The notes under the pieces are model-generated. The model did no database searches, had not been told where the DNA came from, and worked only from the letters and a program-made list of their open reading frames with translations. The position numbers and the translations under genes were made by a program. From IMG/VR virus record IMGVR_UViG_3300044630_005137, positions 1 through 64,000 of that record: 64,000 nucleotides of DNA; one strand, given 5' to 3'. Within the stretch, counting starts at the first letter, position 1, and the number at the start of each line of letters is the position of its first letter. Shown piece by piece: positions 2,844 to 64,000 of the stretch. The DNA is from a virus.

Positions 2844-3065
2844 TTACTTGTTCCTTGGTATGAGGTTCTGAGGGCCTTCTGTGCCGAATAGAGACTTCTT
2901 TACAGGTACGCAGTTAGGGACTCTTCTTCCGCCCTTGTCCTTCATACCCACCTGCTTGTATCCGCTCCAGCAAGCCTTCTCAATGTTGTCCCACTTATCT
3001 TCATCTGGGTTCTCTGATTGATACCCTTTTGAGATCTCTTCATCTGTTAATTCAATATTATCCAT
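2844..3065 (-). CDS. hypothetical protein with CWxGY...GxxVPNCVP motif
   Basis: ACWSGYKQVGMKDKGGRRVPNCVP, a motif I recall from aquatic phage proteins. Confidence 0.7.
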   Translation of the reverse strand: MDNIELTDEEISKGYQSENPDEDKWDNIEKACWSGYKQVGMKDKGGRRVPNCVPVKKSLFGTEGPQNLIPRNK

Positions 3066-3067
3066 AT

Positions 3068-3316
3068 CTATAGTTTACCATATCTATCATTATCTGCAAG
3101 TATCTCCATAAGCAATCCTTGGGGTACATCGTGGCCTGCTTTAATATGCTCTCTCACATGGGTAATCAAATGCCCATCATCGTGGATCTCTTCTGACATT
3201 GAGAATAAGGAATACTCATCTGAACTTTCATTTAGCCAACATGCAGCACACTCTATCCATCCGCCTACATGAGCGTATATATAAATGTCGCTGTCTGTAA
3301 ATCTAGAGTATGCCAT
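3068..3316 (-). CDS. hypothetical protein (CxxC, HxxxH..GH; probable Zn binding)
   Basis: ORF track; GGGGAA RBS. Confidence 0.7.
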   Translation of the reverse strand: MAYSRFTDSDIYIYAHVGGWIECAACWLNESSDEYSLFSMSEEIHDDGHLITHVREHIKAGHDVPQGLLMEILADNDRYGKL

Positions 3317-3328
3317 CGGTTCCCCCTA

Positions 3329-3574
3329 TTAATGTATCTTGTTTATTCCCTTTTTAGACCAGTGTAAATAAGATTTAACACCTACTATCCCATAAAGGAT
3401 AGCGCCAAGAATAAAACCGTACTGCTTTGTTATCAAAGCATATGCAGTCCACATAAATTCATTAAATATGAACCAGAGCCAACCAAATCTTTTCTTCCTG
3501 CCAATTACAAACATAGCTGCTGCACCGCTTAAAACAAGCACGTATGAGGCGTAGCTATTTACCCACTGTTCCAT
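3329..3574 (-). CDS. small membrane protein, PnuC/NMN-transporter-like half module
   Basis: 3 TM helices; GWLWFIFNEFMW..YALITKQYG. Confidence 0.55.
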   Translation of the reverse strand: MEQWVNSYASYVLVLSGAAAMFVIGRKKRFGWLWFIFNEFMWTAYALITKQYGFILGAILYGIVGVKSYLHWSKKGINKIH

Positions 3575-3593
3575 ATTTAATATACCCTTATCG

Positions 3594-3785
3594 TTAGATA
3601 TCTATTATACCATCAGTTGTGTCAACGTAGTTGACTGGAAGCTCTATATTTTCGGCGGGCTCACTAATTGGGATCTTATTTTCATGATATTGTAAATGAA
3701 AATCTAATAATTGATGTGTAGTTGCACAAAAACATATTGGGCAATGTGTGATCCATTGAGATTTATCTTCCCAATGTTTAGGCAT
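3594..3785 (-). CDS. small C2H2-like zinc-finger protein
   Basis: CPIC...HLQYH. Confidence 0.6.
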   Translation of the reverse strand: MPKHWEDKSQWITHCPICFCATTHQLLDFHLQYHENKIPISEPAENIELPVNYVDTTDGIIDI

Positions 3786-3823
3786 TAAGCTCCAGGTGAG
3801 GGAGTCGGGCCATCTGTTCCACC

Positions 3824-4489
3824 TTAGTCCTTATCCATTTCTTTGTATAGTTGCTTTAAACCATTAAGGGTCCCCACATCCATATATTTACCACCAGCAC
3901 TTACGGACCTAATATTCAAATTCATATCAATCCACTCTTGTATTTGCTTCCCTGGGTGTTCCAACTCTGGGTCTATATATCGTACCAGGTTTTTTCTAAA
4001 CAACATTGTGCCCCACATATGCTTATAGTCACAGTCAGCAGACTTATCCTTTGATCCAATAACTTTATTGCCAGAAATTAGTACTTGTCCTACCTTGCCT
4101 TTTATATCATCAGTGCATTCCCACGTTCCTAAAATAAGATCTCCATCAACCGCAAGCATTTCTTTATAAATATTTTTGTGTGTTTTATGTATGTAAGTGT
4201 CTGGCATACCAACAAGAACAGTATCGTTACAATCTCCTACCATAAATTTTATAGCATCAGACATTGTTGATGGCTCAAGAACAATAATCTTGACATTCAT
4301 GTCCATATTTTGTACTATTGGAACCCACTCAGGCCTTGTTGCAACTCTTACTTCATCACAAACCTCGAGCATCTGTTCAACATGCCACTGCAACAAAGAC
4401 CTTTCATCAGATATTGGCAAACAAAATTTAGGTATCCCACCAATTCTTGAGGATCTTCCAGAAGCTGGTAAAACTCCTATTATAGCCAT
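3824..4489 (-). CDS. sugar-1-phosphate nucleotidyltransferase (RmlA-like NTP_transferase)
   Basis: LPASGRSSR..PKFCLP, GMPD, YMDVGT motifs. Confidence 0.8.
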   Translation of the reverse strand: MAIIGVLPASGRSSRIGGIPKFCLPISDERSLLQWHVEQMLEVCDEVRVATRPEWVPIVQNMDMNVKIIVLEPSTMSDAIKFMVGDCNDTVLVGMPDTYIHKTHKNIYKEMLAVDGDLILGTWECTDDIKGKVGQVLISGNKVIGSKDKSADCDYKHMWGTMLFRKNLVRYIDPELEHPGKQIQEWIDMNLNIRSVSAGGKYMDVGTLNGLKQLYKEMDKD

Positions 4490-16938: not shown

Positions 16939-17568
16939 TTACTTTGATACAGTATATCCGTTTTTAGTTAATAAATCAATCGCCGCTTTAACTTTAGGAT
17001 CTACCTTTGCTGGTATCTTTTGTGATGTAGATGGCTTTGATGAAGGCTTTGTTTCAATCTTTGCTGATCCACCAAACTTTGGTCTTCCAAATCCTACGAT
17101 TGAAATAAGAACGCCAGCTTTATTTTTCTTGTAAGCACGAAGTTGTTTGCAAACTTCTCCGCCATTTCTTTGGCTTCCAGACTTTTTTGAAGATGTGTTT
17201 CCTTCTATACACCAAACAGTTCCATCCTCATTGTCTTTAACAACAATACCTACGTGAGAAATTCTATCGACGCCATCTGAAGGGAAATCAAAATACGCTA
17301 TATCTCCTGGCTCTGGATCTGCAACATCTACATCAATCCAAGCACCAGCTTTTTTAAATGCTGCTGCACCTCCTGGTGTGTAAACAGTGTTTGGAATCTT
17401 TACGCCAGATTCTGACCCGCACCAGTTTACGAAACTTCCGCACCATGGTTGGAAGTTTGCTTTCATAAAAGCACCGTATTTAGTTTCGTTGTCTTTAGGA
17501 CCTTCAATAGTTCCTAGCTCTGCTGTAGCAACTTCTATTAGACGAGCTGCTGTACCTTGTTCTGCCAT
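16939..17568 (-). CDS. CHAP-domain endolysin
   Basis: PWCGSFV, PGDIAYFDF, HVGIV, IEGNTS, GFGRP. Confidence 0.9.
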   Translation of the reverse strand: MAEQGTAARLIEVATAELGTIEGPKDNETKYGAFMKANFQPWCGSFVNWCGSESGVKIPNTVYTPGGAAAFKKAGAWIDVDVADPEPGDIAYFDFPSDGVDRISHVGIVVKDNEDGTVWCIEGNTSSKKSGSQRNGGEVCKQLRAYKKNKAGVLISIVGFGRPKFGGSAKIETKPSSKPSTSQKIPAKVDPKVKAAIDLLTKNGYTVSK

Positions 17569-55681: not shown

Positions 55682-56283
55682 ACTTGCTCCAGGCTTATGT
55701 TAACACTCCAAAAGGGTTGTATGCCTCTTTTTATTACAGTAAAGTCGCATGAGGTAAACATCATATTGTAAGTATATTTATTTGCCAAGAGGCCAGATGA
55801 TTCCTCTATCATATCTACTGGAAATACTGTTGGGTTTAATTTAATTAAAAATGCACCTTGACCAGCTGCGCTTTCATAAAAAGTTTTTAAATCTTCTGCT
55901 CCCCATCCACCATCAACTGTTTCATTTCTAAATGACGGTATCATTGCCCAAGATATGGATAGGTTTAGTTTATCAGCAATAAAATACTTTCTTAATGTTC
56001 CATTTGACATTCTTTGGCTATTTTCAATTCTATTTGTACTTATAGAAAGAGGATCTCTATTGTGCTCTGTAACTCTTCTAAATTTTGTTGCAGTTGTTTT
56101 ATCGCTAGTTGCAAGACCGTTTTTAGCTGCTGTATGAAAATCATATATATTTCCTGGTGCTGGAATATTTACTCCCTTATAATCAAAAGTGTTGTTAGCT
56201 GTATCAATTGCAAGTGGGTCGGGTGCTTGTATATAGAGAATTGATCCCTTTGATAAATTTTGAAACAATGGGCTCTGTGTCAT
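55678..56283 (-). CDS. distal-tail (Dit-like) protein
   Basis: directly after tape measure; RMSNGTLRKYFIADK, WSVNISLEQV. Confidence 0.7.
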   Translation of the reverse strand: MTQSPLFQNLSKGSILYIQAPDPLAIDTANNTFDYKGVNIPAPGNIYDFHTAAKNGLATSDKTTATKFRRVTEHNRDPLSISTNRIENSQRMSNGTLRKYFIADKLNLSISWAMIPSFRNETVDGGWGAEDLKTFYESAAGQGAFLIKLNPTVFPVDMIEESSGLLANKYTYNMMFTSCDFTVIKRGIQPFWSVNISLEQV

Positions 56284-59200
56284 TATCCATTACCTACTCT
56301 TCTATTTACTCCCGCTGCCATTTCTTTTAATCTCATTTCTTTATGTATTTGAGTTGCAACATCTTGTGCTGTTACATTAGTTCCATTTAATTCTACACTA
56401 ATATTATATACTGAACCTGATACAGCCGCCGATGCATTTGGATTAAATGGGTTCATATTGGCTGGAATTACTGCTTCATTTTTATGAAGCATTGCCAGCA
56501 TATTTGCAGGAACCATATTGATTCCATTTTCAAACATTGGAACACCTAGATTTGAAAGAGAATTAACCATTCCACCATTTGCAAATTTTGGTCTAATTGA
56601 ACCAAACTCAAGCAATTTTTTAAAAGTATTATTAATAGCATCCATGAATGGAAGGTTCCTGCTATGTAAATCCGTTTTCATTAATCGGGATAAATCATGT
56701 GGGTAAATTCCTTGGGGCAAAGCCGCGCCTCTAACTACAGAGTAGAATTCATCTGCAGTGTTAGCTCTTTGTGGTCCAGGTGTTCCCCTCTTGTCCCCTC
56801 TTACAGTAAATTTTTTGCCCCCAACTGCAATTCTTTGTCCTCCGCCAAGTAATTCTACTAATTCTGGGGGTAAGGTTGATGTAAATTCATCATACATTCC
56901 ACCAATAGAAAGTGGTGTCGGAACTTGTTCTGGGAGTACGTCTATCTTATAAAGACCAGCATTGCTTCCACCCATCCAGTTTCCTGCTTTATCTCCTGTA
57001 AGGTTTAAATGAGCATCGCTAGCATAGTGTGCTGCCATTTTTGAAGACAAACTCCAGTATCCACCAAGCTTGCTATGTGCTTCGGTAGCTTTATACATTG
57101 CAAGGGGTTGATTTGGATCTAGTCCGTGGGCTGCGGCGTATGCTTTATTTGCAGCTTTAGAAAACTCCGTGGTGACTGTTTCTGCAGTTTCAGCTCTGCT
57201 AATTTGTCCTTTACCCATTAAGCCTAGCATTGTCATAAAATATTCTTTTGACACGTCTTTAATTGCTGGGTCTCCGTTTTTGTTTAATATTTCCCACGCT
57301 TCTCCCCAATAATAATTGTAAGCTCTAGACAAATCTGTTCCTGGCGGACTAAAAAATGTAGTTGGGGCATCAGTTAGTGCACGATCTCCAGATAAAACCA
57401 TCTCTGGAATAGAAGCTCCCCTTGCTTCAGCATACTCCATTGCTTTTTTCTGTAAGTTTCTAATAATTGTTTTACTTGCTTTAGAGGATTTCATTGATGA
57501 GACAGCAGGTCCGCCAGCACCAGTTGTAGCATTTGCCAAACGTGCAGAGTTTGCTACACCAGTAGCTCCCATTCCAACTCTTGCGCCGAGACCAAATCCC
57601 ATAAAATTAAATGGCAGCAATGATGCAGATAAGTTATCTCCCTCTCTGCTTTGGCCAGTAGCTTTTCTTAAAGCAGCAACTGCTCCAAGTGGGTCTGAGG
57701 CCATCCATGAAGTAAGTGGTGATCTAGAAAGAATTGCTTGAGCTTCATCTTGTGATTCAGTTAATCCAGATACATATCTTTGTAGCCAATTTTGTTTTTT
57801 AGATGTTGGCTCTCCATACTTATGCTTATGTCCTACTGGACCACCTTTGTGGAATCGCTTAGCGTTCATTTCAATAATCTTGGCTCGCATTGCGGTCTTA
57901 GATAAATCGTTAAGGATTTGGCTTGCTACCTCACTTGCAGAACCCATGCCAGCATCTACGTACTTATACTTATCGTGTCTACTATAGCCTATAGTTCCAT
58001 CGCTACCTAGCCACGAGTATGCAGGACCGTCAGAAACTTTTATTGGCTTAGTAAGTTTAGCAGCAGTCTTTGCTGCCCCTCCGTAGTTCCTAGCCATTTC
58101 GTATGCGTACTTAGCATAGGCAGTAGTACCTTTACGAGGTGCTTGTATTAGTGTATTTGTAAGAGCGTCATGAGGATGTGGATGGACATAGCCACCGTCG
58201 TGCATACCAACCGTAAATCCTCCGCCGCCGCCTAACAATCCGCCAGACCATGCAGATGCGCCAGAGCCAATTAGTGGAGGAGTATACTTGTCTATACCCA
58301 TTCCTGGAGACTTGAATTTCTTTCTCTTCTTAGGCCAAGAAGGAATGCCTGGTCCGCCACCTTCGCCAAAGGCTTGAACCATTCCTCCACCTGCAAACTT
58401 TTTAGGGATATTTATCCTACTGCCTTTGTAAACTGTATTGCCTAAAAGATAATCAGGATTTAATTCAGCAAGTACTTTTGAATCAATATTAAGACTTTTT
58501 GCAATTTGTGATAAAGTTTGATCTTTTTCTACCACATGAGTTGTTCGTTGATTTACAGCTGCAGATATAGCATCTTCAATTGCTGTAAGTGGAGAAGGCA
58601 TAAAGTTGGGTCTTGCATAGGCTACTAGGGCATTGTCCCCTACAGATTCTTTTGTTAAGTAATACCCACTTTGGCTAACTCTGTCTCTTATATTTCCATC
58701 AACAGTAGATATACTAAATTGTTCTACGCCGCTATAACTCTTTTCTCTTTTAACTTCAGTTGCAATTGCGGCATGTCTTATTCTATTCGTATCAGAATCA
58801 GAACTTTGCTGAGCCCAATTTAAATACATAATGTCGCCAGGCTTTGGAGGATTTTTTAAAATCCTAGCCCAGCCAGCTTTTGCTTTATCCTGTTTAGATT
58901 TTTCTCTTTTTGCTTGATAGGCATGATATTTTTTATAATACTCATCCGCAGCTTTTTCATACCTTTCAATATCTTTTGGATTCCCATAGTATTTTCCAGT
59001 ATCATAATTTACTCCAACGTTAAAGTCAGAAGCTCTTGGCGATTCGCCTACATCATCCGAAGCAGATCGATCATCTATTTTTGTTGGTATTGTTGTAGCA
59101 ACATCTACAAGCTGACCTAATCCTGCAAAACTTTTAGCACCGTCTGCTGTATAAAAAGTATCTGGTATTTTAACGCCAGACATGTGTGCGGCCCACTGAA

Positions 59201-62200
59201 CAAATGTTCCACACCATGCAAATGCTTTTGCTCCAAGGTCTTTTATGCTATTGAGCCATCTTGAATATTTTGTTATATTATTACCCTCTGCGCCATATGT
59301 TTTGCCCATTACTTCTTCTTCAGTTCCAAGTTGAGAAATTGCTGTATCTATAAATCTTTTAGCAGTACCAAGTGGTGATTTAACATCTTTTAATGTTGGA
59401 TCTTTACCTATTTCTTTTAGTAATGCTTGTCCGCCAGTTGAAAATTTTTGAACTTGGCCTCCATTTGCAAACCGACCAGCATTTATATCATCCATTGCTT
59501 TTACGCCATACTTTGCAACAGAAGATGCCTTGATCACATATTCTCCATGTGAAAGCATCGCTGGAATAGAGTCTGATGTTGCAGTTCCTGGACCTCTAAC
59601 CTTACCTCCGCTAGCATATGTTGGACTGATATCTCTTTGGTACTGAATACTTCCATCATTTAAAACTAAGAATTGTTTTTTAACTCCATTAGCTTCTTCT
59701 AAAGTAAATTGTTGTCCTGGTTTATATCCCTTTTTTGCTGCAAAGTACTTTACTGCGCTTCTATCATTAAATAATGGTGTGTTCCAATCAATATATTTTT
59801 TACCTACCGCGTCCTTTGCGGTTCCAGCATTTATTGGATCTTTATAAGTTCCGCCACCACGAATTGCTGCAACTATTTCTTCGGTCATTTTCTTTATTGA
59901 GTACCCCTTGCCACCAGTAATCTGATCAGCAAACTTTGTTACTGCGGCAACATCTCTATCAAATATAGAAAGTGTGTCTTTATTTACAGATACTCTTGGA
60001 ACTATTCCTGCAGTGCCAGCGTCTGGCAATCCAGCAGGTTTAGATTCTACATATACTTTCTTTACAGTTCCATCTTTATTAAAATATTCAGCAAAGGCTG
60101 ATCTTATGTCCTTTGCAGTTTGGCTATTTCCAGTTCCTGCCACACCAATTTGTTTAAGCAAATTATCAAGTCTGCCCAGAAGTTGTACCTCTGAATCTCT
60201 TTTTGCTTTGCTATCTGGTAACAGATTATTTGTTATTCTTAGTGTAGTTATCTCATCATAAGTATCTTTAAAGCCTTTAATTAGATCTGCAATTTTAGTT
60301 GCGCTTGCTGCGCCATCTTGCGCTCCCTCGAACTTTTGGGCTGCTGCATCGGCTTTTGCTTGTTTTGCATCTATTTTCTTTTGCTCAATAGCCTTTAGTC
60401 TAGCTGCTTCGTCCTCTATTGCTTTTTGAGTTAGGTCAAACTGTCTATTACTAGTAAGTTGATCTATTTCTATTCTTGCTCTAGCTGCGCCAGCCTGATC
60501 TCCACGAGATATAGCGTCTGCATATTCTATTTGAAGCTTTTGTAATTCTAACGCATAGTTTGATGCATCTTGAGTTGCTCTTAAAGACTCTAATTTTTTA
60601 TTTTTTTCATCTTCAATAAGACTAATTTTTTTAGCAATTAATTTTAATTCTTCTTGAATATTTTTCTGTGTGGCAGCAGCAGCTTTTTGTGATGCGGCGG
60701 AAGTAGCTGCAATTGATTTTTGTAGCTTATTTAATATCTTTCCAACAGATCCATATGTGCTTCCGTCCCCAGCGGCTTTAGTTAATCCATCAATTCCTTC
60801 TCCAACTGCTGCAGTAAATCCAGCTAGCTTTATAGCTAATTCGCCATCAAGGTACTTAAGGTCTAGACCGATTCCAGAAGTAGATAGTTTTATTTTTGCT
60901 AAAATTGATTTTATTGAATCAAATTTATTTGTAATTTTTGCTAACTCTGGACTCATATCTTGTATTACTTTAAAAGTTTCTTCTCCTATTGCAGCATTAA
61001 AATTAGGAACATCTTTTTCTAGATTTGCTAAAGATATTTGATATGCCTCATACTCATCAATGACTTCACCAGTTGCATTCTTTGTTCCAATAAGTGCTTT
61101 AGTACTAGAGTCAAATGTACTTATAACACTTTCAAGACCAGATATAACACCCTTCTTGTATGCATTAGTATCTGCAAAAGCATTGGCATATCTATCAATT
61201 AGGCCAATGAATGTTAAATCTACGCCTCTTTCAAATAAGTTATTTTCTTCCTTCCATTGCTTAGTAAACCACATTGGTTGTTTTGCAAGATTATACTCAA
61301 AAGATCCCTTTGACCAACCAGTTTTTGGTTCAGGCTTTAATGTTTCTAGTAAATTTTTAACAGCAAACTCAGCCGCTGTGGCTTTATCTGTAATTGCACC
61401 AAATCCGCTATTGGCCAACAATTCATAAGATTTTGTGGCTTTCTCGCTATTAGCAATTGCTCCGTAAATCATTCTATTTGCTTGCTCTACACTCAAGCCT
61501 CCTGCAATAAATTGTGCTTTTTGGTTGTTTATTAAAGTTTGAAGCTCTCCAGTGCTTGAAGTTCTATTAATTGATTCAATTAAATCTTTAAGAGCCGCGC
61601 CTTCTTCTTTTGCTTTCTTCATGTCTTCTACTGATTGTGGTATACCAGGCATTCCTATGGAGCTGCTTCTTCCTCCTTGTGCCGCAGCATTTGCCAATTT
61701 TTGTTTTTCAATATACTCTGTAAGGTAGTTATTAAGATTAAAGTATGATATTCCAGCTTGTTCAGCACCGTCTTTAGTAATGCCCAAAGACATTGCGGCA
61801 TCCTGTTGAGCATTATTATATTTCTTCCAAACATCAAAGCCAATTAAAAGAACTGATATGACTACACCAACACCTTTAAGAATTTTAATATATTTACCTA
61901 ATTGTGCTCCTAACTTAGATATTGCATCTTTAAAGCCTTTAGCAGCTTTAATTGCAGCCATAGTTGCACTAGTGGTTGTTTTTATTTTGTTTCCAACTGT
62001 TAACCATGGGACCATAGGGATTATAGTTGATGCGGCCATAATACCTAATCCAGCATTCATTCCAGACATTTCCATGCCAAGCATATTAACTTTTTCCTGC
62101 TGCATCATGTACATTCCGCCCATGTTGCCAGCCATACCGATACCCATCTGGGCACCCATTCCCATTCCGCCTCTTATTTTGGTATCAAGCCCTGCTGCTT

Positions 62201-64000
62201 GTGCAGACTTTTTATCATGGATATATCCGTCGGCGTCCATGTACTCACGTTTTCTGTAGCCCAAGGTTCCAACTTTACGGCTCTTTGTTCCATCTTGCCC
62301 AGTCTCTTTCCAATCGCCAACCATTCCAGGACCAGACATAGATATTGGCATAATTTGGCCAGGTCCCATTAGATAGTTTGCACCTGGATATGCAGCCGAA
62401 TAGCTTCTAGCTTGATGTCTTAATATACCGTCCTTAATATCTCTTGTATTTGTTTTTACCCAATTAGAAAGGAATGAAGCATTTAGTCTTGCAGATGCTA
62501 CTTGGGATTTTGCAAAATCTCTATATGCGCTATTAATGTGAGTTGCTGATGTTGCAATTCCATATCTTAAACCTACTGTGCCGACCTTAATTGATTTAGT
62601 TAAAGAATCAAACGCTCTAGTTACTCCTGCTGGTAGCTGACCTATTTGAGAAAGCTTTAAGGTATCTATAATCTGTTGAGATTGACCAGTTGCTACTGAA
62701 CCAAAAGCGTTACCAGCAACTCCAGATCCTCCAACATAAGGAACTCGGATGACCTGCATTTGAGGGTTTCCTGAAGATGTGTATCCAGATCCAGATGGAG
62801 GATTATAAGATGCAGTTCTTGCTGCTCTTAATCTATCATCTTCAGCTCTTTTTGCTGGGTTTCCTGATCTCTGTGACCCTTTTTTATTCTTAGCGCCATA
62901 TGCATATCTTCCTGATCTAACTGGGCCTCCGCCGATTGGGCCACCACTATTTCTTTTAGCTGCAACATGAACTGCATGCAGCGGACCAAAATCAGTTGCA
63001 TCATCCATTCCATTTTCAAATCTTTGTAGCAATTTGATATATGGGGCTCTGTCTTCTCTCGGCAACGTTGCAACAAACTTAATAAGTTTTGGATGCATCT
63101 TTTTCATTGCGGCTTTTATTTTTCTGTTATACTGCTTAGATGTCATTCCTGCAGCAATTGGTGCTGTGTTTACTGCAAAGTCTTTCCTGGCTCCGCCTTT
63201 AACTCCAAGCAGATTTATCATAGCTTGATCTATCATAGAAGGAAGAGACTCTGCGTGTGCGGTATTGCGTGAAGCTTTAGGGAATACTCCTGCTGCTCCG
63301 ACATCTGCCAAAACATTTCCATAAACATTGCTTGGAGATAAATCCTTATTATTCATAACTAAAGATGCAATTGTTTGTCTAATCATTTCATCTTCGGTAA
63401 AGACTGTTCCTCCAGTAGTAAACCTTTTATCAAACGGTGACTCAACACCGAGCAACTTTGATTTGCCACTTGGGTCTAATGGATTTGATATTGTTTTAAT
63501 TGTTTGCTCAGGAGCATCAAGCCCAAACACTTCTCTAGCCATTCTAGTTCCGTATACCTCAGCTTTAGCAGATATTTCATTTGGAACACCCTTAAAGAAC
63601 TTAAGTCTACCTTCGGAGTCTCTGTATAATCCAGAAACACCAGGTATTGGATAACTCATTCCAGAGCTTGGTGAAACCATGTGTCCATATTTAACGGGAG
63701 GCAAATCTTTAAACGATCCAGTTGCTGTAGCCCTTGACATTTCACGAGATTGCTCTAAAATATCAAGTTGCTTACCTGGCGGTAATAATTTTAACAATGG
63801 GGATATGCTAGTCCCTCTATCTCTGCCCGCTACTGCTTCTTTAATCCACGGGTACTTAATCATATCGGCTTCACGCTTTTTAGCATATTGAGCTTGCTGA
63901 GCCAATCTAATAGACTCTAGTCTTGCAGAGAGTGGAGGAACCACTCCGTATGAAAATCTACCTGGAGATACAGATCCACCTGGAATCATACCTCCCATGT
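56283..64000 (-). CDS. tape measure protein, multidomain, probably 5'-truncated by the window edge
   Basis: at least 2571 aa; Ala/Gly helical core; ASGG.V.GPGT.TSDSIPAMLS.GEYV motif; embedded kinase-like, CHAP, LysM and ART-like segments. Confidence 0.88.
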   Translation of the reverse strand, partial: MGGMIPGGSVSPGRFSYGVVPPLSARLESIRLAQQAQYAKKREADMIKYPWIKEAVAGRDRGTSISPLLKLLPPGKQLDILEQSREMSRATATGSFKDLPPVKYGHMVSPSSGMSYPIPGVSGLYRDSEGRLKFFKGVPNEISAKAEVYGTRMAREVFGLDAPEQTIKTISNPLDPSGKSKLLGVESPFDKRFTTGGTVFTEDEMIRQTIASLVMNNKDLSPSNVYGNVLADVGAAGVFPKASRNTAHAESLPSMIDQAMINLLGVKGGARKDFAVNTAPIAAGMTSKQYNRKIKAAMKKMHPKLIKFVATLPREDRAPYIKLLQRFENGMDDATDFGPLHAVHVAAKRNSGGPIGGGPVRSGRYAYGAKNKKGSQRSGNPAKRAEDDRLRAARTASYNPPSGSGYTSSGNPQMQVIRVPYVGGSGVAGNAFGSVATGQSQQIIDTLKLSQIGQLPAGVTRAFDSLTKSIKVGTVGLRYGIATSATHINSAYRDFAKSQVASARLNASFLSNWVKTNTRDIKDGILRHQARSYSAAYPGANYLMGPGQIMPISMSGPGMVGDWKETGQDGTKSRKVGTLGYRKREYMDADGYIHDKKSAQAAGLDTKIRGGMGMGAQMGIGMAGNMGGMYMMQQEKVNMLGMEMSGMNAGLGIMAASTIIPMVPWLTVGNKIKTTTSATMAAIKAAKGFKDAISKLGAQLGKYIKILKGVGVVISVLLIGFDVWKKYNNAQQDAAMSLGITKDGAEQAGISYFNLNNYLTEYIEKQKLANAAAQGGRSSSIGMPGIPQSVEDMKKAKEEGAALKDLIESINRTSSTGELQTLINNQKAQFIAGGLSVEQANRMIYGAIANSEKATKSYELLANSGFGAITDKATAAEFAVKNLLETLKPEPKTGWSKGSFEYNLAKQPMWFTKQWKEENNLFERGVDLTFIGLIDRYANAFADTNAYKKGVISGLESVISTFDSSTKALIGTKNATGEVIDEYEAYQISLANLEKDVPNFNAAIGEETFKVIQDMSPELAKITNKFDSIKSILAKIKLSTSGIGLDLKYLDGELAIKLAGFTAAVGEGIDGLTKAAGDGSTYGSVGKILNKLQKSIAATSAASQKAAAATQKNIQEELKLIAKKISLIEDEKNKKLESLRATQDASNYALELQKLQIEYADAISRGDQAGAARARIEIDQLTSNRQFDLTQKAIEDEAARLKAIEQKKIDAKQAKADAAAQKFEGAQDGAASATKIADLIKGFKDTYDEITTLRITNNLLPDSKAKRDSEVQLLGRLDNLLKQIGVAGTGNSQTAKDIRSAFAEYFNKDGTVKKVYVESKPAGLPDAGTAGIVPRVSVNKDTLSIFDRDVAAVTKFADQITGGKGYSIKKMTEEIVAAIRGGGTYKDPINAGTAKDAVGKKYIDWNTPLFNDRSAVKYFAAKKGYKPGQQFTLEEANGVKKQFLVLNDGSIQYQRDISPTYASGGKVRGPGTATSDSIPAMLSHGEYVIKASSVAKYGVKAMDDINAGRFANGGQVQKFSTGGQALLKEIGKDPTLKDVKSPLGTAKRFIDTAISQLGTEEEVMGKTYGAEGNNITKYSRWLNSIKDLGAKAFAWCGTFVQWAAHMSGVKIPDTFYTADGAKSFAGLGQLVDVATTIPTKIDDRSASDDVGESPRASDFNVGVNYDTGKYYGNPKDIERYEKAADEYYKKYHAYQAKREKSKQDKAKAGWARILKNPPKPGDIMYLNWAQQSSDSDTNRIRHAAIATEVKREKSYSGVEQFSISTVDGNIRDRVSQSGYYLTKESVGDNALVAYARPNFMPSPLTAIEDAISAAVNQRTTHVVEKDQTLSQIAKSLNIDSKVLAELNPDYLLGNTVYKGSRINIPKKFAGGGMVQAFGEGGGPGIPSWPKKRKKFKSPGMGIDKYTPPLIGSGASAWSGGLLGGGGGFTVGMHDGGYVHPHPHDALTNTLIQAPRKGTTAYAKYAYEMARNYGGAAKTAAKLTKPIKVSDGPAYSWLGSDGTIGYSRHDKYKYVDAGMGSASEVASQILNDLSKTAMRAKIIEMNAKRFHKGGPVGHKHKYGEPTSKKQNWLQRYVSGLTESQDEAQAILSRSPLTSWMASDPLGAVAALRKATGQSREGDNLSASLLPFNFMGFGLGARVGMGATGVANSARLANATTGAGGPAVSSMKSSKASKTIIRNLQKKAMEYAEARGASIPEMVLSGDRALTDAPTTFFSPPGTDLSRAYNYYWGEAWEILNKNGDPAIKDVSKEYFMTMLGLMGKGQISRAETAETVTTEFSKAANKAYAAAHGLDPNQPLAMYKATEAHSKLGGYWSLSSKMAAHYASDAHLNLTGDKAGNWMGGSNAGLYKIDVLPEQVPTPLSIGGMYDEFTSTLPPELVELLGGGQRIAVGGKKFTVRGDKRGTPGPQRANTADEFYSVVRGAALPQGIYPHDLSRLMKTDLHSRNLPFMDAINNTFKKLLEFGSIRPKFANGGMVNSLSNLGVPMFENGINMVPANMLAMLHKNEAVIPANMNPFNPNASAAVSGSVYNISVELNGTNVTAQDVATQIHKEMRLKEMAAGVNRRVGNG

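What the first reader, a model, noticed from the sequence alone, without database searches (positions are those of the whole stretch)
56283..64000. Tape measure as a cargo polyprotein punctuated by recurrent xxGG boundary motifs
Seen: a short motif recurs at apparent domain junctions: MGGMI, RNSGGPI, YASGGKV, FANGGQV, FSTGGQ, FAGGGMV, FGEGGG, MHDGGYV, FHKGGPV, FANGGMV. The segments between them look like discrete modules (kinase-like, CHAP+LysM, ART-like, unknown). The kinase-like module is bracketed by a longer repeat: GGMIPGGSVSPGRFSYG and GGPIGGGPVRSGRYAYG. Established: tape measures are ejected into the host, are often proteolysed and can carry muralytic domains. Inference: the motifs are cleavage signals and/or recombination joints of a swappable effector-delivery system that acts before phage gene expression.
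Basis: partly seen in the sequence, partly recalled or inferred. Interest (0 to 1): 0.82.

Follow-up and report, generated by a model that had tools for sequence, protein, structure and literature searches.

The report
Giant modular phage tape measure protein
A 3,890-residue phage tail tape measure is built from separate domains (a kinase-like fold, a cell-wall hydrolase, several unknown ones) joined by a short conserved [F/Y]xxGG motif; related phages have gained, lost and swapped domains at these joints, and the motif lies close to where the T5 tape measure is known to be cut.

Summary
The window holds the C-terminal 2,571 residues of a 3,890-residue tape measure protein (TMP) gene that runs past the window end. 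All ten listed motifs are present. [FYWM]xxGGx[VIAL] occurs 12 times against 1.2 expected.

In 23 distinct full-length relatives (2,794-4,710 aa) the N-terminal ~2,835 residues and the last ~100 are collinear. The stretch between two FANGG joints is replaced wholesale or is absent. Homology breakpoints fall within 8 residues of the motif three times more often than expected; GG without the aromatic residue shows no excess.

Predicted structures put the joints in disordered linkers between folded domains. The kinase-like label holds: PI4K-II, CtkA and HipA-like fold, Z about 10. CHAP+LysM is plausible. The ART label found no support.

The motif flanks a module also found in lambda-type, TM4 and Rhodococcus phage TMPs. 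T5 pb2 is cut two residues before its own GG, but that likeness is by eye only.

Cleavage here is untested, and the motif DNA is not conserved beyond what the protein requires. Verdict: a new, extreme variant of known cargo-bearing TMPs. Other first-reader notes of this scan flagged the same stretch, untested.

The parts
56283..63998 (-). Window part of the tape measure gene: residues 1320-3890 plus the stop. The gene continues to 67955 of the record, outside the window.
   Evidence: The N-terminal core (residues 55-683) is 32-35% identical to annotated TMPs, E 1e-73 to 2e-79. TMP PHROG families match.
63945..63998 (-). First long GG joint (residues 1320-1337), upstream bracket of the kinase-like module
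   Evidence: Nearly invariant in 24 relatives. pLDDT below 50 in the model. L023 loses collinear homology at residue 1337.
63810..63944 (-). 45-residue helical insert present in only 4 of 24 relatives; it begins directly after the first joint
   Evidence: alignment A1, columns 21-65
62964..63701 (-). Kinase-like domain (residues ~1419-1664): PI4K type II, CtkA and HipA-like fold, with invariant K, E, DxxxxN and DVG positions
   Evidence: AF2 core pLDDT 70-97. Foldseek: PI4KIIalpha at E 1e-5, and every listed hit a kinase. VIA Z 10.4 over 197-199 residues, rmsd 4.4-4.5. The Atlas's nearest named clusters are PI3_PI4_kinase, LepB_N and HipA_2.
62895..62951 (-). Second long GG joint (residues 1669-1687), downstream bracket of the kinase-like module
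   Evidence: N, GG, P, G, Y and G positions invariant. pLDDT below 50.
61926..62171 (-). Met/Gly-rich hydrophobic stretch (residues ~1929-2010), probably membrane-active
   Evidence: read from the translation; inference
60006..61508 (-). Long Ala/Lys/Glu-rich region (residues ~2150-2650), read as helical; collinear in all relatives
   Evidence: PHROG TMP family 3547 matches P0001 1152-1528, which is residues 2471-2847 of the full protein.
59445..59621 (-). Lambda-type TMP end module (residues 2779-2837): opening joint, IPAxLSxGEYVI core, closing FANGG joint. In relatives, homology to this protein most often ends here.
   Evidence: Homology ends at residue 2835 with 10 of 22 distinct partners. 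tblastn hits TMPs in 158 phage records, best E 3e-10. In the shortest relatives this module is the one next to the C-terminal tail.
58701..59390 (-). CHAP-like cysteine peptidase cassette (residues ~2856-3085) with a long charged insert
   Evidence: PHROG endolysin family, 3e-10. Pfam CHAP 17.5 bits, below the cut-off of 26. The equivalent cassettes of relatives score 46-50 bits.
58404..58538 (-). LysM domain (residues 3140-3184); it ends 3 residues before the next joint
   Evidence: Pfam 20.8 bits against a cut-off of 20.9. Relatives score 48 bits.
58182..58397 (-). Cluster of three joints and a Gly run (residues 3187-3258)
   Evidence: Q and L009 resume homology at residue 3189.
57852..58148 (-). 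Domain E (residues ~3270-3368): a small alpha/beta domain that also exists as stand-alone, very basic phage proteins of 109-182 aa
   Evidence: AF2 pLDDT about 90 for model residues 16-118. Eight stand-alone homologues end where the TMP carries its RFHKGG joint.
57828..57857 (-). RFHKGG joint (residues 3367-3376) between domain E and the next cassette
   Evidence: The disordered linker starts here. By my reading of the table, about 16 of the 63 best matched stretches start within some 14 residues of it and 8 end within 5.
56820..57794 (-). Two cassettes of unknown fold (residues ~3388-3447 and ~3490-3712) separated by a Gly/Ala-rich stretch.
   Evidence: AF2 partly confident. No fold or HMM match. 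Homologues occur in other giant TMPs.
56286..56588 (-). Terminal unit (residues 3790-3890): FANGG joint, a degenerate core and a C-terminal helix; conserved in all relatives
   Evidence: Homology resumes at residue 3791. Helix at model residues 610-633. About the same size as T5 pb2C: 99 against 92 residues.

Best explanation
This is the tape measure protein of a roughly 106-kb siphophage known only from metagenomes, grown to 3,890 residues by adding domains.

Shown:
- A conserved scaffold is shared by all relatives: a classical TMP core, a kinase-like domain bracketed by two long GG joints, a hydrophobic stretch, a long Ala/Lys/Glu-rich region read as helical, and a lambda-type end module.
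- A variable array of cargo cassettes follows. Here it is CHAP+LysM, a small basic domain and two unknown cassettes. It sits between the closing joint of the end module and the conserved ~100-residue C-terminal tail.
- Each cassette carries its own N-terminal [KG][FY]xxGGx[VI] joint.
- The joints lie in predicted disordered linkers.
- The joints are conserved as protein, not as DNA.
- The joints are where relatives differ by whole cassettes.

Inferred:
- The joint is a functional inter-module signal.
- It lets the chain lie extended in the tail tube.
- At least at the module-type joints (904, 2783, 3794) it marks proteolytic processing during tail assembly, as in T5 pb2 and lambda gpH. The C-terminal tail would then stay docked in the hub while the cassettes are released into the cell envelope or cytoplasm when the TMP is ejected ahead of the DNA.
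- I put cleavage at some joints at about 0.4.
For: - Motif enrichment is about tenfold over shuffles.
- 51 related loci were found, giving 23 distinct full-length proteins of 2,794-4,710 aa, collinear except for the cargo region.
- The commonest breakpoints in this protein are residues 2835 and 3791, both in FANGG joints. Others are at 3368 and 3189.
- 93-99 of 386 distinct HSP ends in the variable region lie within 8 residues of a joint, against 30-32 expected. Starts peak at -7 to -2 and ends at +3/+4 of the first G. GG without the aromatic residue gives 47 against 42.
- Close relatives P0004 and P0005 carry an extra cassette of about 110 residues between two joints at residue 3794.
- Stand-alone homologues of domain E end where the joint starts.
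- AF2 gives low confidence to every joint it covered, next to confident domains.
- The shortest relatives have the end module followed directly by the tail, as in the lambda-type Burkholderia phage SBP33 and in lambda itself.
- Module-then-enzyme order recurs in cultured phages: in TM4 gp17 the Mt3 hydrolase motif follows, and in Rhodococcus phage GuyFagieri an SLT domain lies between two joints.
- T5 pb2 is cut after R1127, two residues before its GG (PMC10038345).
- A cut near lambda gpH residue 729 would leave a 79-kDa N-terminal fragment and a 13-kDa C-terminal one, close to the reported ~14-kDa peptide (PMC12617516).
Against: - There is no direct evidence of cleavage for this phage, which is not cultured.
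- T5 pb2 does not match an HMM of the module, so that parallel is a resemblance, not shown homology. Lambda gpH itself scores only 14 bits.
- About three quarters of BLAST breakpoints are not at joints. Some matches to the motif lie inside conserved regions (for example residue 2152) and are probably chance.
- One exchanged segment (about residues 1100-1309) has no clear joint at its upstream edge.
- Breakpoint counts are not independent, because relatives share ancestry.
- No protease candidate was found apart from the CHAP cassette, and there is no JAB domain.
- In TM4, deleting the embedded motif shortens the tail (PMC1796659). Cargo there is part of the ruler at assembly, so any cleavage must come later.
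Confidence: 0.5

Rival explanations
1. Hinge only. The joints are conserved flexible linkers or packing elements that let folded or foldable domains lie in line within the tube lumen and refold after ejection. The protein stays in one piece except perhaps for one terminal cut, and the joints are not protease signals.
For: All covered joints are predicted disordered. In TM4 the embedded domain counts towards tail length, so it is part of a continuous ruler at assembly (PMC1796659). No dedicated protease was found. The literature maps only one TMP cut site, in T5.
Against: Ordinary linkers are not this conserved: an aromatic residue at -3, the GG pair and V/I at +3 hold across 332 distinct contexts, and positions are invariant in A1. 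The T5 cut lies next to its GG pair, and the lambda cut lies in the glycine-rich region that holds the same module.
Confidence: 0.33
2. Historical scars. Each cassette arrived by recombination between TMP genes within the conserved end module. The repeated motifs would be leftovers of duplicated module ends, without a function of their own.
For: Residues 2781-2850 and 3786-3888 are paralogous; both align to the single end of the short relatives. Four full modules exist, at 904, 963, 2783 and 3794. DNA identity decays just upstream of the joint, and the motif variant travels with the downstream cassette.
Against: Bare joints that lack the rest of the module (1321, 1671, 3254, 3371) are kept nearly invariant in relatives only 45% identical, and recur in distant giant TMPs. 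Scars would decay.
Confidence: 0.12
3. Artefact: a chimeric assembly or a low-complexity chance pattern.
For: The record is a metagenome contig.
Against: 34 independent full-length uninterrupted ORFs come from different metagenomes. No shuffle of 2,000 reaches the observed counts. The same module occurs in cultured phages.
Confidence: 0.01

Closest known systems
Lambda gpH and T5 pb2: tape measures processed near the C terminus
   Same: The end module has the same layout in lambda gpH: joint at 733-737, GEFV core at 753-756, second joint at 778-782, then about 70 residues of tail. A lambda-type TMP, Burkholderia phage SBP33, carries Pfam TMP_2 and Tape_meas_lam_C and matches the module here at 46% identity, E 5e-8. 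T5 pb2 is cut after R1127, two residues before its GG, and the 92-residue fragment stays in the hub (PMC10038345). The terminal unit here is 99 residues.
   Different: Lambda and T5 have one such site and no cassettes behind it. The lambda cut site is unmapped (PMC12617516). T5 shows no statistical sequence match to the module. No Pfam family covers the module.
Actinophage tape measures with embedded cell-wall hydrolase motifs (TM4 gp17 Mt3; Rhodococcus phage GuyFagieri)
   Same: The order is the same: end module, closing joint, enzyme domain. In GuyFagieri another joint follows before the tail. Embedded enzymes in TMPs and their role in infection are established (PMC1796659).
   Different: Those carry one or two muralytic domains in 1,200-1,700 residues. 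This family carries up to about 1,900 residues of mostly unknown cassettes, plus a kinase-like domain in the conserved part. I found no paper that describes the flanking motif.
Polymorphic toxin systems, whose conserved short motif (VENN in CdiA, PxxxxDPxGL in Rhs) marks the start of a swappable C-terminal domain (my own knowledge, not checked here)
   Same: A short conserved peptide marks the boundary between constant and variable parts, and relatives differ by whole cassettes behind it.
   Different: Here several cassettes are strung in series inside a virion protein. The joint is not conserved as DNA. The cargo is not shown to be toxic.
Tape-measure-related effectors of contractile injection systems (Streptomyces Tme and Sle1)
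   Same: TMP-like proteins held in a tube lumen and ejected as cargo with modular C-terminal domains (PMC11126660; PMC13277306).
   Different: Those belong to non-phage injection systems. The paper I read (PMC13277306) mentions no cleavage and no GG joint.

Membership tests
Phage tail tape measure protein | Homology of the N-terminal core to known TMPs | tested here: met
   Residues 55-683 are 32-35% identical to annotated Streptomyces phage TMPs, E 1e-73 to 2e-79. PHROG TMP families match.
Phage tail tape measure protein | Gene position between tail tube/chaperone genes and distal tail genes | tested here: met
   Upstream: a tail-tube-like protein with an Ig domain, and a 110-aa ORF. Downstream: a 201-aa ORF and a 1,103-aa minor tail protein at E 9e-83.
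Lambda gpH-type C-terminal end module | Sequence similarity to the module of lambda-family TMPs | tested here: met
   46% identity, E 5e-8, to Burkholderia phage SBP33, whose TMP has Pfam TMP_2 and Tape_meas_lam_C directly upstream of the module.
Lambda gpH-type C-terminal end module | Significant match to lambda gpH itself | tested here: inconclusive
   The alignment is in register over residues 711-803, but scores only 14 bits, E 0.015 at Z = 10,000.
Proteolytically processed polyprotein | Cleavage products with termini at the joints | not testable with these tools
   No isolate and no proteomics. There is only the analogy with T5 pb2 and lambda gpH.
PI3/PI4-kinase, HipA and CtkA-like kinases | Protein-kinase-like fold | tested here: met
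   VIA Z 10.4 (PI4KII beta/alpha, 197-199 residues aligned, rmsd 4.4-4.5), CtkA 10.2, MavQ 9.7, HipA 9.4, LepB 9.2. Foldseek E 1e-5. The model's mean pLDDT is only 63, but the core scores 70-97.
PI3/PI4-kinase, HipA and CtkA-like kinases | Catalytic Lys, Glu, DxxxxN and DxG residues in place | tested here: inconclusive
   K138, E149, D221, N226 and D234-V-G (A1 numbering) are invariant in 24 sequences. No residue-level superposition was available, and the His usually found in the catalytic loop is absent.
PI3/PI4-kinase, HipA and CtkA-like kinases | Match to a family profile | tested here: not met
   No Pfam or PDB sequence match. I therefore call it a kinase-like fold, not a member of a named family.
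CHAP / NlpC-P60 peptidase | Pfam profile above the cut-off | tested here: inconclusive
   17.5 bits against a cut-off of 26, on the C-terminal half only. PHROG endolysin 3e-10 on the N-terminal half. Relatives' cassettes score 46-50 bits.
LysM | Pfam profile above the cut-off | tested here: inconclusive
   20.8 bits against a cut-off of 20.9. 48 bits in relatives L015 and L045.
ADP-ribosyltransferase | ART fold or profile match | tested here: inconclusive
   No Pfam or PDB sequence hit for this protein or its homologues. Foldseek found nothing below E 1. The VIA wide search barely tested this part. The Atlas gave Tox-ART-HYD1 only at 0.80. Homologues do share an [FY][RK]A ... SxSS ... xE[FY] pattern.
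Polymorphic-toxin-like cassette system | Boundary motif conserved as DNA so that homologous recombination can use it | tested here: not met
   Codons differ between the copies; the longest shared run is 11 nt. Identity between relatives decays about 15 codons before the joint.

The most novel reading that the evidence does not exclude
The [FY]xxGGx[VI] joint, with the IPAxLxxGExV core behind it, is a general and so far undescribed processing and junction signal of long-tailed phage tape measures. It would mark where lambda gpH, and perhaps TM4 gp17 and others, are cut. It would also be the slot at which phages load arbitrary protein cargo, including a kinase, for delivery into the cell ahead of the DNA.
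Probability: 0.25. Interest if true: 0.85.

Novelty: new variant of a known kind. Interest (0 to 1): 0.68.

Why it matters
TMP cleavage has been known since 1974 and is now suspected to be general. PMC12617516 and PMC11972413 say so, and PMC12617516 adds that the lambda site and the protease are unknown. A conserved motif next to the only mapped site (T5), and in the right place in lambda, gives a concrete and cheap hypothesis to test in model phages.

The family also shows that a tape measure can carry far more than muralytic domains. A conserved kinase-like fold and about ten unknown cassette types would be protein cargo that reaches the cell before any phage gene is expressed. This bears on anti-defence biology and on engineering phage or tailocin cargo.

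It also predicts that tail length changes with cargo load among close relatives.

Tried and rejected
- **T5 link.** HMMs of the module, one narrow and one built from 88 diverse copies, did not find T5 pb2. I treat T5 as an analogy only.
- **ART-like label.** Tested with Pfam, PDB sequences, Foldseek, VIA wide and the Atlas. None supports it.
- **Protease for GG sites.** No Prok-JAB domain in the genome. Tail-gene neighbours show no protease.
- **DNA-level recombination signal.** Rejected.
- **Pfam scan of cargo in 13 relatives.** Named only CHAP, NlpC/P60 and LysM above threshold.
- **The look-up of encoding contigs.** Context of the stand-alone domain E homologues came from the search for related loci instead.
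- **Literature searches** for a described TMP junction motif, a TMP polyprotein, or a TMP-borne kinase or ART found nothing.
Full report
**What is there.** The finding's ORF (minus strand, 56283-63998) is cut by the window end. The window is the first 64 kb of a 106,226-bp virus record judged 91% complete. In that record the ORF runs to 67955 and encodes 3,890 residues. Residues 55-683 are a classical TMP core, 32-35% identical to annotated Streptomyces phage TMPs with E down to 2e-79. The gene sits between a tail-tube-like gene with a small ORF and distal tail genes. Pfam sees only a borderline LysM in the window part. PHROGs add TMP families and an endolysin family.

**The motif.**
- [FYWM]xxGGx[VIAL] occurs 12 times against 1.2 in composition-preserving shuffles, and no shuffle of 2,000 reaches that count. 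Plain GG is barely enriched.
- Over 332 distinct contexts from this family and 19 other giant proteins, the consensus is G/K at -4, F/Y/M at -3, A/N/H at -2, then GG, with V/I at +3.
- Four copies (904, 963, 2783, 3794) open a fuller unit. In it the joint is followed by an IPAxLxxGExVI-like core, about 20 more residues and a closing joint.

**Relatives.**
- One scan of IMG/VR gave 51 related loci. 34 hold full-length uninterrupted ORFs, 23 of them distinct, of 2,794-4,710 residues.
- All are collinear with this protein over about residues 1-2835 and over the last ~100 residues. The part between is replaced by unrelated sequence or is missing.
- In this protein the commonest homology end is residue 2835, just past the FANGG at 2832 (10 of 22 partners). 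The commonest restart is 3791, the F of the last FANGG. Others fall at 3368 and 3189, also joints.
- The shortest relatives have no cargo. Their end module is followed directly by the C-terminal tail, and residues 2781-2850 and 3786-3888 of this protein both align to that single end. Cargo is therefore inserted at the closing joint of the end module.

**Statistics of the breakpoints.**
- In the variable region, 99 of 386 distinct HSP ends lie within 8 residues of a joint, against 31.6 expected. Starts peak at -7 to -2 and ends at +3/+4 of the first G.
- Controls show that this is specific. [FYWM]xxGG gives 93 against 29.5. GG without the aromatic residue gives 47 against 42.4. Other patterns give 0.4-1.8 times expectation.
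- These counts are inflated by shared ancestry, and three quarters of the ends are not at joints. I take them as support, not proof.

**Independent cases.**
- A search of 1.84 billion representative proteins with the cargo region found 63 relatives, many of them other giant TMP-like proteins. By my reading of that table, about 16 matched stretches start within some 14 residues of the RFHKGG joint at 3371, and 8 end within 5 residues of it.
- Eight stand-alone basic proteins of 109-182 residues match domain E and end where the TMP has that joint.
- Two close relatives (about 78% identical) have an extra cassette of roughly 110 residues lying between two joints at position 3794.
- A 45-residue insert present in 4 of 24 relatives starts directly after the first long joint.

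**Structure.**
- An AF2 model of residues 1318-1700, built on 24 sequences, has a confident core and low confidence at both bracketing joints.
- The core matches only kinases. Foldseek gives PI4KIIalpha at 1e-5, then CtkA and HipA. VIA gives Z 10.4 for PI4KII, 10.2 for CtkA, 9.7 for MavQ, 9.4 for HipA and 9.2 for LepB, with about 180-200 residues aligned at rmsd about 4-4.5.
- The invariant K, E, DxxxxN and DVG positions fit an active site, but I could not superpose residues. No sequence profile matches.
- A model of residues 3254-3890 shows a confident domain E ending at the joint, then a disordered linker, a partly confident later cassette, a long low-confidence stretch around the last joint, and a C-terminal helix.
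- Nothing in the PDB matches these cassettes. The ART reading stays unsupported.

**Not a DNA site.** The thirteen copies use different codons; the longest shared run is 11 nt. Between relatives, DNA identity is high until about 15 codons before the joint at 2832 and then decays. The motif variant goes with the downstream cassette. The joint is therefore kept by selection on the protein, and each cassette brings its own.

**Link to known tape measures.**
- The end module matches TMPs in 158 phage records from Gordonia, Burkholderia, Vibrio, Rhodococcus, Mycobacterium and other hosts.
- In the lambda-type Burkholderia phage SBP33 the module lies right after Pfam Tape_meas_lam_C and about 65 residues from the end.
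- Lambda gpH has the same layout at 729-790, though its score against a module HMM is marginal. No Pfam family covers it.
- In TM4 gp17 the module precedes the Mt3 hydrolase motif. In Rhodococcus phage GuyFagieri an SLT domain lies between two joints.
- T5 pb2 is cut after R1127 (PMC10038345), which is two residues before its only C-terminal GG. T5 does not match the HMM, however.
[quoted passage not shown] A cut near residue 729 would give 79 and 13 kDa.
- TMP cleavage is now thought to be widespread (PMC11972413).
- In TM4, deleting the embedded motif shortens the tail by about 20 nm (PMC1796659). Cargo there is part of the ruler during assembly.

**Reading.**
- Shown: a modular TMP whose cassettes are bounded by a conserved, disordered, protein-level joint, and exchange of cassettes at those joints.
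- Inferred: the joints are hinge and processing signals, and the cassettes are delivered when the TMP is ejected.
- I put cleavage at some joints at about 0.4, a hinge-only role at about 0.33, and scars of module duplication at about 0.12.

**Novelty.** TMPs with embedded enzymes and C-terminal processing are known. New here are the scale, the serial cassette array, the joint as a common boundary shared with lambda-type and actinophage TMPs, and a conserved kinase-like domain.

Noticed in passing
window 62964-63701 (-): A kinase-like fold (PI4K type II, CtkA and HipA-like) is conserved inside the tape measure of all 24 relatives aligned. My literature searches turned up no tape measure with a kinase domain.
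   Followed up: yes
L061:3771-4319 (+), L063:5902-6279 (+): Stand-alone homologues of cargo domain E are very basic small proteins with poly-Lys tails. In other IMG/VR phages they are encoded between the large terminase and a roughly 585-aa gene, that is, in the head/packaging block. Their function is unknown.
   Followed up: partly
window 17197-17457 (-): A stand-alone CHAP domain protein (211-aa ORF, 45 bits), probably the endolysin. The tape measure carries a second, divergent CHAP. A third weak match lies at 79658-79726 of the record, outside the window.
   Followed up: partly
record 64001-67955 (outside the window), protein residues 904-1005: Two further full end modules lie about 1,000 residues from the N terminus. 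The protein therefore reads like three TMP-like units in series (1-1005, 1006-2850, 2851-3890).
   Followed up: partly
L054 (T5 pb2 residues ~1128-1160): The 'metallopeptidase motif' of T5 pb2 lies where the GExV core of the end module would lie. The likeness is by eye only; an HMM does not confirm it.
   Followed up: partly
window 57495-57614 (-) and 61926-62171 (-): Gly/Met/Ala-rich hydrophobic stretches recur in the second and third units. They recall the hydrophobic stretch that lies N-terminal to the cut site in T5 pb2.
   Followed up: no
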